A stretch of 64,000 nt of DNA, taken from Trypanosoma brucei. Lineage: Eukaryota. Shown in pieces: positions 54,701-57,700 of this stretch (position 1 is the first letter of the stretch; each line of letters opens with the position of its first letter). The stretch lies in the NCBI GenBank assembly GCA_000002445.1, contig CP000071.1, forward strand, positions 96,001 through 160,000, read 5' to 3'. The position numbers are program-made.

Positions 54701-57700
54701 GCAAGGAAACAAAAGCAAACACGTGCTCGCAAAAAATGTGTGAAAAACAAAATTACAGAACCACACGAACTTTATTTTTTCATTCACCTCATCGATGTTT
54801 TTTCTTCACTTAAAACTCCTGAAACGATCGTCAATGTAATGAGGCACTTGCAACACGATCCAAAGTGGATGAATTCCCAACCAACAGGTTCATTCCCCCC
54901 ACGCCTCGTCACAGACTATGAAATACCTCACACACGCAGCGATTATCGTTATATTCCATTTCTTTCCCTTAACCCAACTAAAGCGGATGTTGACCACAGC
55001 AGAATGCGCAAGTGGAGCTACGGGCCAGACGAACGATCTACAGAAATTTGATAGTGCGTTCCCTTCCTGATGTTTTTACGGACCCTCACAGGTAGTTTCC
55101 ATAGCATAATAACGTGTGCGGGGTTAGGGTTAGGGTTAGGGTTAGGCCAGCACCACAGCATTCGATAAGACAAAACAACAAGTCACAAAAATAGGATCAC
55201 ACCGGACATACGTGCCTGTCGCTGCTTTAAAATAAGGATGCAAAAAGCAACGAGCGCATTTGACATTGGCAATAAAAGGGAAAATGAGTGGGCAACAACA
55301 CCAAAGGATTTACCCTCCGCTCCTCCATCACCCACTGCAAGTGAAAATAACCATAGAAACAATAGTTTCGACCTTCACGCAGTGCGGGGAGCAAGTTGGC
55401 TCCCTTCAGATGCAAGAGATGAGAATTGTGTGATCCTTCCAAACCTTGCCTTTTCTATCTGCGGTATATTTGTCAAAGCGCCTAACCTTCAATGTCACTC
55501 AGAGAAAAGAAAAAAATAAGACAACATGTCATCTCACATCACCTTTGTCCTCCAAGTGAAGATGAAACATTGCCACTCACGAACTAGTGTGCGGGGTAGA
55601 ACAATTTTGAGACGCGACTGTCTCTGGCGCACCTTTATAGCAGTAAAGTATCTGATGCGTCGATATTCTTACTGTTGGAAGAAAATATGACGGCCCCAAT
55701 GCGGTTCAACACGCTTCGAATGGACGAAAAGGACGGAAAAACTACTGCACCTGAGACCAACTGAGGCACCTGCCGCAACAATTCCATCATAACAGCTTCA
55801 CAGCACGCGCTCCATACGTTGGCCAGTGAAGCGCCATGGAAGTCCTTGCGGTGCGTACCGGGAAGAGTTATTTCAGCACGGTGAATGGAAGGGAAAATGT
55901 TACCGACGTGAGATCCTTTAAAAATAATGTCCTCAGGCGGCCGGTCACTCCTATCGTACGTGAAGAGCACAAATATATCGGATATTTTTATAAAGTGGAG
56001 CTGCACACTCATGAATTTAAGTAGCTTCCAACAACTAAGCATGCCGCGCTGCACACGTACCACATTCTCCAAATCCTTGTTAGTTTCTGAGGATTTGTAG
56101 CGTCTTCCTAGCCTCCGCATTTGATACACAAAGGTGTCCGATAGTTCCAATTCAAGAGTCGTGACGTGACTGTACACGGAAGAGGCAAGAATAGCGTTGC
56201 CGACGATTCGTGCGTCGCGAACAGTGAGATCAATACTGAAGGGTTTTATTTCATGGCTCATCTTCCCGTTGTAGGTACCATTGCTGCGCATATTGGACAC
56301 TGTGCATTGAACTGTCACCCTCTTGTGTTCGTAAACCAACCACGACTCACATCGGCCCACCACGCAGTTAATTGGAATGTTATCCCCATCCTCCACAAGC
56401 AAACCAATACCACATGCTTTCACACCAGCACGCAACATCATCTCCTCTACAGGCGTCTCAACTATCACAGCGCTACCAACCAATGTTCCTAAGCCACTTC
56501 GCAGCGAAGAAATAGCGTATGTTGTCACAAGGGTGATAACCCATCCGACCGTGTCCTTCCTTTGGTGAATGAAGGCTGCTACATCGTTTCCAATTTCTAC
56601 CTCTGTTCCGTGGGACAGAAGGACCCGGAATCTCCGTGAAGAGTTAACACCTTCACGAAGAACCAATACCACTTCGCCACTAGTTAAGGAATGAGGAGTG
56701 TACGATGAGACACTCATACGGGGTACCTTCTCATAGTTGTGCGATGTTAAGTTGACGACAGTCACGTATGGGGGGCGTGGTTCACTGACTGACACCACAG
56801 TTGGTTCGAAGCGGTCCTCCTTGAACACGCGAATCTCATGGTGTGTGTCTCCGCACTCGATGAAAGCAGATGAGCATGTCTGTGGTAAGAGGCTCACCGC
56901 CACAGGCGCGCTAAATTCGATGTTTACAGTTGTGTCGCTACCCTTTGCGCTCCATGCGAATGCAAAATTTACAACTTCATCATTCGCTAGAGCAGTGTAA
57001 GATACCGTCCCCCCCGCGGGAACTGTGAAACAGTGTGGCAACTCATCGGTAAACAACCCACCCCTTCTCGTTACGTGTCTTACTTGGAGGTCCCGTAAAT
57101 CATCCATGTTGGTAAAAAGTAGAGGTGGTATTAGCTCCATGAAGTAACCGAAGCGATCGACTCGAGACCGCATGAGAAAAAGATGAGGCTGTCCGAGATG
57201 TGTGCCTTTGACGCTCATCGGTGCGCAGAAGAGCGGGCGTTCCTCAAAATCTTCGGTAACTTCAAAAGAAACGGAACTCAGTTCTCCCGCATGTAATACC
57301 AGGCGAGTGTGAAGGGGTAGATATGCAAAGTTTCGGCCTGTTGCGTGACTCAATGCGCCATCCCGGATCAAACCAGTTGGTTTCCCTACCTCGGTGGTAA
57401 ACCTCACATCCGTACCAGAGTTATTTTTAAGCCCAAAGACGCCATAGGGGCGAACGGTGCAGACACTAGGCGCAGTGCAGCTGCCAACATCCTGCTGTCC
57501 AATATCCAGTTCAAAGAAGCGCTTGTAGGGAAATTCCCTGTGCCTCATCAGAACCCTCTGTCTTAACGATCCTTCGTTGAAACACGCTTCAACACGATCA
57601 GTACTGAAATAGATGTCTGAGTAAACTATACTTTCAAAAACATAATCCACCCTTGGACCAAAGGGATCGTGCTGCAGCGTAAAAAAAGTGCCGCTCGGTT

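What the first reader, a model, noticed from the sequence alone, without database searches (positions are those of the whole stretch)
55100..55160. Interstitial (TTAGGG)4 telomere-repeat tract at the subtelomere/core transition, next to the giant VPS13-like gene
Four perfect copies of the trypanosome telomeric hexamer lie about 500 bp downstream of the 3' end of the VPS13-like ORF. The region around them holds pseudogene debris: an LRRP relic and a truncated copy of duplicated gene B. Internal telomeric tracts can mark ancient telomere healing or fusion points. They can also recruit telomere-binding factors (TRF, RAP1) that influence silencing of neighbouring genes.
Basis: partly seen in the sequence, partly recalled or inferred. 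Interest (0 to 1): 0.5.

Follow-up and report, generated by a model that had tools for sequence, protein, structure and literature searches.

The report
Short internal telomere-repeat scar, trypanosome
A real 26-base run of the telomere repeat lies inside a Trypanosoma brucei chromosome, where gene order stops matching a related species; it is most likely a harmless scar of an old DNA-break repair, not a former chromosome end or a gene silencer.

Summary
The tract is real. Window 55121-55146 (+) reads (GGGTTA)4GG, is perfect, is unique in the 64 kb, and lies 489 bp past the stop of the 2443-aa minus-strand gene.

Literature and anatomy place the window on the T. brucei chromosome 8 left arm, from a VSG array to Tb927.8.480-.550.

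T. b. gambiense DAL972 carries the tract at exactly the orthologous site, one hexamer shorter, with about 99% identical flanks. It therefore predates the subspecies split and slips like a microsatellite.

T. vivax and T. conorhini have no tract downstream of the orthologous gene. T. vivax gene order (PMSR, big gene, nucleoside transporter, LRR) stops matching in this same spacer.

- The G-strand points into the chromosome, the wrong way for a healed end of the core.
- The VSG array starts about 16.6 kb further left.
- The Pol II unit runs through the tract to PAP2 (Tb927.8.480), whose mRNA is near the median level, so no silencing is visible.

Best reading: a short interstitial telomeric sequence left by break repair or rearrangement in the T. 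brucei lineage, now neutral. Interest is low to moderate.

The parts
55121..55146 (+). Short interstitial telomeric sequence, (GGGTTA)4GG. It reads (CCTAAC)4 on the transcribed minus-strand sense.
   Evidence: The orthologous T. b. gambiense site has (GGGTTA)3GG.
55635..62966 (-). 2443-aa gene with a chorein/ATG2/VPS13-type N-terminus, probably Tb927.8.540. It is the last gene syntenic with T. vivax.
   Evidence: tblastn with T. vivax genes. A 2443-aa product is called at the same place in T. b. gambiense.
55501..55516 (-). First strong polypyrimidine tract after the stop codon, with AG at 55499. It is a possible trans-splice/polyadenylation signal upstream of the tract.
   Evidence: Its function is inferred, not shown.
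54489..54502 (+). Partial inverted telomere-like motif CCCGTAACCCTAAA (11 of 12 bases). It is probably incidental.
   Evidence: I16/I17. Half of it lies in a 47-bp indel that is absent from T. b. gambiense.
54495..54541 (.). 47-bp insertion/deletion difference from T. b. gambiense, bounded by short ACGG(T/G)G repeats.
   Evidence: alignment columns 1166-1212.
52507..53635 (-). LRRP pseudogene (Tb927.8.530-like), the first feature downstream of the tract. It has no counterpart at this position in T. vivax.
   Evidence: PMC2837033.
39693..40691 (-). PAP2 phosphatase (Tb927.8.480), the last ORF of the minus-strand Pol II unit that runs through the tract.
   Evidence: (98% identical to T. b. gambiense PAP2). 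PMC8259959 and PMC3332058.
38041..38530 (+). VSG 3'-end relic plus 70-bp-repeat-like sequence. It marks the true start of VSG-type subtelomeric DNA.

Best explanation
The tract is a short interstitial telomeric sequence. A few telomere hexamers were inserted when a double-strand break in the spacer downstream of the Tb927.8.540-like gene was repaired. Either telomerase primed on the G-run ...GTGCGGGG, or a telomeric fragment was captured.

The event happened in the T. brucei lineage after its separation from T. vivax. It may belong to the same rearrangement that replaced the ancestral downstream neighbours (nucleoside transporter, LRR gene) with the lineage-specific LRRP-to-PAP2 block.

Since then the tract has behaved as a neutral hexanucleotide microsatellite, gaining or losing single units by replication slippage. 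Pol II transcribes through it, and it has no strong effect on its neighbours.

Shown: presence, uniqueness, conservation with a one-unit length difference, absence in outgroups, position at the synteny break, orientation, and position inside a transcription unit. Inferred: the insertion mechanism and the neutrality.
For: - Perfect 4.3-unit array, unique in 64 kb.
- Same site in T. b. gambiense DAL972 with exactly one hexamer fewer and about 99% identical flanks. The whole 26-kb neighbourhood is collinear.
- No telomeric run within 10 kb downstream of the T. vivax orthologue or within 1.6 kb in T. conorhini.
- T. vivax gene order is PMSR, big gene, nucleoside transporter, LRR. The window matches through the big gene's stop and then stops matching, and there is no transporter relic.
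- The closest T. vivax PAP2 homologue sits on a different contig from the PMSR/big-gene locus.
- The flanks are unique sequence, with no degenerate hexamers and no 70-bp, 50-bp or other subtelomeric repeats adjoining.
- The left junction is a G-run, GCGGGG|TTAGGG, as expected for telomerase priming (established knowledge).
- Transcription continues past the tract. Tb927.8.480 is the last ORF of the unit, at 26.6 rpkm against a median of 30.6 (PMC3332058). LRRP tags are detected (PMC2837033).
Against: - No 'empty' orthologous site could be shown. The T. vivax and T. conorhini spacers are not alignable, and the T. congolense contig ends inside the gene.
- Only two T. brucei-group sequences could be compared.
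- Co-location with a synteny break fits a chromosome-end relic as well as it fits a repair scar.
- Neutrality is inferred from bulk mRNA levels in published tables, not from chromatin or nascent-RNA data at this site.
- Tb927.8.510 is very low (1.1 rpkm), and both Tb927.8.480 and .510 rise about 10-20-fold on CTR9 depletion (PMC3332058). Some repression of this block therefore exists, although that paper links it to closeness to the transcription stop.
Confidence: 0.6

Rival explanations
1. Fossil chromosome end. The hexamers are what remains of a real terminal telomere. Either a healed break capped the core, or the telomere of another chromosome piece (the present LRRP-PAP2-VSG block) was joined to a broken core end.
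For: The tract lies in the spacer where T. vivax synteny ends. Everything to its left is lineage-specific or subtelomere-type: LRRP pseudogene, orphan duplicated genes, a PAP2 paralogue, ingi and a VSG array. The orientation (G-strand 5'->3' rightwards) is what a right-end telomere of the left-hand block would have.
Against: The orientation is wrong for a healed left end of the core, which would leave CCCTAA on the + strand. Only 3-4 perfect units remain, with no degenerate hexamers, no head-to-head array and no subtelomeric repeats next to it. The LRRP pseudogene is coded on the opposite strand to the G-strand, so LRRP plus tract is not a collinear expression-site remnant. In expression sites, genes are transcribed towards the telomere (established knowledge). 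The weak inverted CCCTAA-like partner at 54489 is not conserved in T. b. gambiense. The 620 bp between the two motifs shows no reversal of strand skew, which argues against an inversion model.
Confidence: 0.2
2. Ordinary microsatellite unrelated to telomere biology. A chance two-unit GGGTTA seed expanded by replication slippage.
For: The one-unit difference between the window and T. b. gambiense shows that the tract does slip. Two-unit near-matches arise by chance at about 0.2 per register per 64 kb.
Against: No other perfect hexanucleotide array of four or more units exists in the 64 kb. It is unlikely a priori that the only such array carries the telomere motif, one of several hundred hexamer classes, and also lies in the synteny-break spacer.
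Confidence: 0.1
3. Functional cis-element. The tract recruits TbTRF (and TbRAP1 through it), seeds base J/H3.V, or forms a G-quadruplex on the template strand. It thereby attenuates Pol II and separates conserved core genes from conditionally expressed lineage-specific genes.
For: TbTRF binds duplex TTAGGG sequence-specifically (PMC8402208). Ten GGGTTA units suffice as an entry site for de novo base J in Leishmania plasmids (PMC4344527). The window allele has four G3 runs on the template strand of the minus-strand unit. The tract is kept in two subspecies. The downstream genes Tb927.8.480.490 and .510 are inducible, and .510 is very low (PMC8259959, PMC3332058).
Against: The transcription unit continues for 15 kb beyond the tract, and its last gene is at near-median mRNA level (PMC3332058). 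The T. b. gambiense allele has only three G3 runs, so a canonical three-tetrad quadruplex is not conserved. No Tb927.8.48x-.53x gene appears in the held supplementary tables of the H3.V/J termination study. This is weak evidence, because the held files may be incomplete. Four units is well below the ten tested for J entry. Conservation between subspecies that are about 99% identical here says nothing about constraint.
Confidence: 0.08
4. Assembly artefact. Two chromosome pieces were wrongly joined through telomeric reads.
For: Internal telomere repeats in T. cruzi contigs have been suspected of this (PMC3418195).
Against: An independent genome (T. b. gambiense DAL972) has the same junction with its own SNPs and a different unit number. 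Both flanks are collinear over 26 kb.
Confidence: 0.01

Closest known systems
Short interstitial telomeric sequences of vertebrate genomes (a few to about 20 exact TTAGGG units inserted at break-repair sites; from my own knowledge of work by Nergadze, Azzalin, Giulotto and colleagues, not checked here)
   Same: Exact telomeric hexamers, few units, flanked by unique non-repetitive DNA, internal position, lineage-specific presence, and unit-number polymorphism by slippage.
   Different: The organism is a kinetoplastid. The diagnostic empty orthologous site could not be shown here. The tract coincides with a synteny break, which is not typical of the vertebrate short class.
Internal telomeric repeats in Trypanosoma cruzi chromosome-end contigs (group XI, Tel 46-49; PMC3418195)
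   Same: Telomere hexamers inside kinetoplastid contigs near subtelomere-type genes. A merger of ends was discussed as the origin.
   Different: The T. cruzi cases come with the 189-bp telomeric junction and could be assembly errors. Here there is no junction-type sequence, and the tract is verified in a second genome.
Fusion-type ITS (head-to-head telomere arrays, for example human 2q13; from my own knowledge)
   Same: An internal telomere motif at an evolutionary rearrangement point.
   Different: There is no head-to-head (TTAGGG)n(CCCTAA)n structure, no degenerate array and no flanking subtelomeric repeats. Only 26 bp are present, in one orientation.
Base J / H3.V Pol II termination regions of T. 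brucei (PMC2896530, PMC4721609)
   Same: Telomeric GGGTTA repeats are the main J substrate, and G-rich 'entry' sequences are implicated (PMC4344527).
   Different: The tract is not at the end of its transcription unit. No J or H3.V data exist for it here.

Membership tests
Short interstitial telomeric sequence (short ITS) | Tandem exact copies of the species' telomeric hexamer | tested here: met
   (GGGTTA)4GG with 100% matches. The T. brucei telomere repeat is TTAGGG (PMC8402208).
Short interstitial telomeric sequence (short ITS) | Internal position, not at a chromosome end | tested here: met
   55 kb of sequence lie to the left and 9 kb to the right in the window. In T. b. gambiense the site is about 34.4 kb from the assembled left end of the 2.23-Mb chromosome 8 record, with genes on both sides.
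Short interstitial telomeric sequence (short ITS) | Few units, unique flanks, no degenerate or subtelomeric repeats adjoining | tested here: met
Short interstitial telomeric sequence (short ITS) | Empty orthologous site in an outgroup, with the flanks contiguous | tested here: inconclusive
   No tract downstream of the orthologue in T. vivax or T. conorhini, but the spacers are not alignable. The T. congolense contig is too short.
Healed chromosome end (de novo telomere addition capping the core) | G-rich strand runs 5'->3' away from the retained (core) DNA | tested here: not met
   The core lies to the right, yet the G-strand is on the + strand and runs towards it. Gene order Tb927.8.480 to .550 fixes the orientation (PMC8259959, PMC3326296).
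Telomere-telomere fusion ITS | Head-to-head (TTAGGG)n-(CCCTAA)n arrays | tested here: not met
   The array has a single orientation. The only inverse motif is 620 bp to the left, in the order CCCTAA...TTAGGG, and is not conserved.
Pol II termination / base J-H3.V region of T. brucei | Lies at the end of a polycistronic unit | tested here: not met
   Minus-strand ORFs continue to 39693. Tb927.8.480 is scored as the last ORF of the unit (PMC3332058).
Pol II termination / base J-H3.V region of T. brucei | Enrichment of base J and H3.V | not testable with these tools
   No J-IP or ChIP data are available here.
TbTRF binding site | Duplex TTAGGG repeats offering two or more Myb half-sites | tested here: met
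   The sequence requirement alone is met in both alleles. Occupancy in vivo is not testable here.
Canonical intramolecular G-quadruplex motif | Four runs of three or more G separated by short loops, conserved | tested here: inconclusive
   Met in the window (GGGG, GGG, GGG, GGG). Not met in T. b. gambiense (GGGG, GGG, GGG, GG).
VPS13 / chorein-N lipid-transfer proteins (the neighbouring gene) | Chorein_N / VPS13_N domain above the Pfam threshold | tested here: not met
   ATG2_CAD scores 22.9 bits (cut-off 50) and VPS13_N scores 14.8 bits (cut-off 80). This is a resemblance only.

The most novel reading that the evidence does not exclude
The tract is a maintained cis-element. It would act as a minimal TbTRF and/or base J entry site inside a Pol II unit, and partly attenuate transcription at the point where conserved core genes give way to lineage-specific, stress- and iron-inducible genes (Tb927.8.530-.480). 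That would make it a telomere-independent use of telomere chromatin in trypanosomes.
Probability: 0.06. Interest if true: 0.6.

Novelty: new member of a known kind. Interest (0 to 1): 0.22.

Why it matters
If it is only a repair scar, it is a small dated marker of the rearrangement that attached lineage-specific DNA to the chromosome 8 core in the T. brucei lineage, and a handy polymorphic hexanucleotide marker. It would matter more if internal telomere hexamers in trypanosomes turned out to recruit TRF or base J and modulate Pol II within transcription units. Nothing found here points that way.

Tried and rejected
- **Inversion model.** One breakpoint inside an old (CCCTAA)n tract would give CCCTAA at 54490 and TTAGGG at 55121. 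I rejected it because the 620-bp segment shows no reversal of AT or GC skew. The left motif also lies partly in a 47-bp indel that is absent in T. b. gambiense.
- **Expression-site remnant (LRRP/ESAG8-like gene plus telomere).** Rejected because the LRRP coding strand is opposite to the G-strand.
- **Relic of the T. vivax nucleoside transporter or LRR gene between the big gene and the LRRP pseudogene.** None found, even at permissive tblastn settings. The LRR similarity is generic.
- **Paralogous relics of VSGs or of the duplicated genes near the tract.** None found by blastn or tblastx.
- **Alignment of the spacer with T. vivax and T. conorhini.** Nothing alignable.
- **More T. brucei-group strains.** Exact-protein look-ups for four window ORFs failed. 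T. equiperdum gave only a 2.8-kb contig that does not reach the tract. The homology search with the big gene's C-terminus did not return the T. brucei-group orthologue, although one is on record.
- **Literature on interstitial telomeric sequences in T. brucei.** Nothing specific found in the searchable library.
- **Supplementary tables of the H3.V/J termination paper.** They hold no Tb927.8.48x-.53x entries.
- **One paper could not be opened.** The cap on papers was reached.

Full report
**Observation**

The + strand at 55120-55147 reads GGGG TTAGGG TTAGGG TTAGGG TTAGG C. That is three perfect TTAGGG units plus TTAGG. In the GGGTTA register it is four perfect units plus GG (55121-55146). Tandem Repeats Finder reports period 6, 4.3 copies and 100% matches.

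No other run of two or more telomeric units occurs in the 64 kb. None of 100 shuffles reached the observed 12-mer count. The window holds no other perfect hexanucleotide array of four or more units. The tract starts 489 bp after the stop codon (55637-55635) of a 2443-aa minus-strand ORF.

**Where the window comes from**

- *1-31 kb:* four VSG ORFs on the + strand (VSG_B, Trypan_glycop and C-terminal domains).
- *32.3-37.4 kb:* an ingi-type retroposon on the minus strand (endonuclease, RT, RNase H).
- *38.0-38.5 kb:* a VSG 3'-end relic followed by 70-bp-repeat-like sequence.
- *38.5 kb to the right edge, all on the minus strand:*
  - PAP2 (39693-40691).
  - A 3-kb tandem duplication (42170-47296, 98-99.7% identity).
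  - An LRR pseudogene (52507-53635).
  - The big gene.
  - A methionine sulfoxide reductase fragment at the window's right edge.

The literature names these genes:
- PAP2 is Tb927.8.480 (PMC8259959).
- Tb927.8.490/.500 and .510/.520 are a segmental duplication that is missing from T. evansi and not annotated in T. b. gambiense (PMC4288722).
- Tb927.8.530 is an LRRP (PMC2837033).
- Tb927.8.550 is the methionine sulfoxide reductase (PMC3326296).

The window is therefore the left arm of T. brucei chromosome 8 in reference orientation, with the nearest telomere to the left. By elimination the big gene would be Tb927.8.540; this is an inference. Its N-terminus resembles ATG2/VPS13 chorein-type proteins only below threshold.

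**Other genomes**

T. b. gambiense DAL972 chromosome 8 (FN554971.1) was reached through an exact match to the window's 175-aa ORF. It is collinear with window 57315-31663, shares the ingi, and has a single copy of the 3-kb unit.

At the orthologous position it reads GGCCTAACCCTAACCCTAACCCCGC. That is the same tract with exactly one hexamer fewer, in flanks that are about 99% identical. The tract is therefore not an assembly artefact and not a private recent event. It predates the subspecies split and changes length by single units, as microsatellites do.

The T. vivax locus has the order PMSR, big gene (called as two genes), nucleoside transporter, LRR protein. The window matches it through the big gene's stop and not beyond. 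No transporter relic lies between the big gene and the LRRP pseudogene, and the LRR similarity is generic.

Neither T. vivax (10 kb downstream) nor T. conorhini (1.6 kb) has a telomeric run there. The spacers are not alignable. The T. congolense contig ends inside the gene.

The closest non-brucei-group PAP2 relatives are 45-48% identical. The T. vivax one sits on a different contig from the PMSR locus. The block to the left of the tract is therefore lineage-specific in position. The positional link to a synteny break is real, at least against T. vivax.

**Is it the subtelomere/core boundary?**

No. VSG-type DNA ends at about 38.5 kb, roughly 16.6 kb to the left.

A published transcriptome table scores Tb927.8.480 as the last ORF of its Pol II unit ('0 kb' from the convergent stop), at 26.6 rpkm in wild-type bloodstream forms against a median of 30.6. 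The same table places Tb927.8.510 6 kb from the stop, at 1.1 rpkm (PMC3332058). LRRP (Tb927.8.530) tags are detected in bloodstream forms (PMC2837033). PAP2, Tb927.8.490 and Tb927.8.510 mRNAs are iron-responsive (PMC8259959).

All ORFs from the methionine sulfoxide reductase to PAP2 are on one strand. The simplest reading is that Pol II runs through the tract. This argues against a terminator or a strong silencer.

The held supplementary tables of the H3.V/J termination study list none of these genes. This is weak evidence.

**Orientation**

At a left chromosome end the + strand reads CCCTAA. Here it reads TTAGGG, so the G-strand runs 5'->3' towards the chromosome interior. A healed left end of the core would leave the opposite orientation, so that reading fails.

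A telomere-telomere fusion would leave head-to-head arrays, and there are none.

The LRRP pseudogene is coded on the strand opposite to the G-strand. LRRP plus tract is therefore not a collinear expression-site remnant.

A weak inverse motif, CCCGTAACCCTAAA at 54489-54502, suggested an inversion through an older CCCTAA tract. Two results count against this:
- The 620-bp segment between the motifs shows no skew reversal.
- Half of the motif lies in a 47-bp indel (54495-54541) that T. b. gambiense lacks.

I treat the motif as incidental.

**Best explanation**

The tract is a short interstitial telomeric sequence. A few hexamers were laid down at a double-strand break in this spacer, either by telomerase priming on the G-run GCGGGG or by capture of telomeric DNA. 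This happened in the T. brucei lineage after its split from T. vivax, and possibly during the rearrangement that replaced the ancestral neighbours. The tract is now a neutral, slipping hexanucleotide repeat that Pol II transcribes through. Confidence is about 0.6.

The main rival is a true fossil end belonging to the left-hand block, which fits the orientation but not the brevity and purity of the tract (0.2). The remaining rivals are a telomere-unrelated microsatellite (0.1), a functional TRF/J/G4 element (0.08) and an assembly artefact (0.01).

On the functional rival:
- Ten GGGTTA units can seed base J in Leishmania plasmids (PMC4344527).
- TbTRF binds duplex TTAGGG specifically (PMC8402208).
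- However, four units have not been tested.
- The four-G-run quadruplex motif is lost in the T. b. gambiense allele.
- Downstream genes are expressed.

**Position in the transcript (inference only)**

On the coding strand, a 16-nt polypyrimidine tract with an AG follows the stop by about 120 nt (55516-55499). The next such tract is at 53888-53875, before the LRRP ORF. The (CCCUAA)4 run would therefore lie either in a long 3' UTR or in a separate spliced transcript.

**Comparison with what is known**

The tract matches the 'short ITS' class described in vertebrates in every feature I could test. The exception is the empty-site proof, which was inconclusive. This class comparison rests on my own knowledge of that literature.

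The nearest kinetoplastid precedent in the searchable library is internal telomere repeats in T. cruzi contigs, whose reality was uncertain (PMC3418195). I found no paper on interstitial telomeric sequences in T. brucei.

**Verdict**

The healing/fusion and silencing interpretations are not supported. The tract is a new example of a known kind and is of low to moderate interest.

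Noticed in passing
window 42170-47296: A 3,044-bp tandem duplication (98-99.7% identical copies) carries two ORF pairs, 42767-43618/43718-44671 and 45813-46628/46728-47255. The second copy of the larger ORF is truncated at the end of the duplication. T. b. gambiense has one copy. This matches the published Tb927.8.490/.500 versus .510/.520 strain polymorphism (PMC4288722).
   Followed up: partly
window 54495-54541: A 47-bp indel relative to T. b. gambiense, bounded by short ACGG(T/G)G repeats, which suggests microhomology-mediated deletion or slippage. 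It removes half of the weak inverse telomere-like motif.
   Followed up: yes
window 32298-37400 and 38041-38530: A degenerate ingi-type retroposon (endonuclease, RT and RNase H in separate frames) lies next to a VSG 3'-end relic with 70-bp-repeat-like sequence. It sits at the convergent junction between the + strand VSG array and the minus-strand Pol II unit. The same insertion is present in T. b. gambiense.
   Followed up: partly
window 55635-62966 (-); L001 7335-14863; L002 882-7063: The 2443-aa ORF is intact here and in T. b. gambiense. It is annotated as two adjacent genes in T. vivax (831 + 1620 aa) and in T. conorhini (551 + 1414 aa). The N-terminus gives sub-threshold ATG2/VPS13 hits only. 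It may be a divergent bridge-like lipid-transfer protein whose gene models differ between species.
   Followed up: partly
window 48000-52000: About 4 kb with no convincing ORF and a strongly A-rich + strand (AT skew up to +0.36, like the VSG-array spacers). It lies inside a minus-strand transcription unit and is collinear in T. b. gambiense. Its origin is unexplained.
   Followed up: no
window 53986-53999 and 54489-54502: Two copies of CCCGTAACC(T/C)TAAA lie 503 bp apart, each followed by an A-rich run ending in ATG. This is possibly a degenerate local duplication, or chance.
   Followed up: no
window 39693-40691 (-): PAP2 (Tb927.8.480) is 98% identical to the T. b. gambiense protein. It is only 57% identical to a second T. 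brucei-group PAP2 and 45-48% identical to the T. congolense and T. vivax proteins. It looks like a lineage-specific paralogue parked at the end of the transcription unit.
   Followed up: partly
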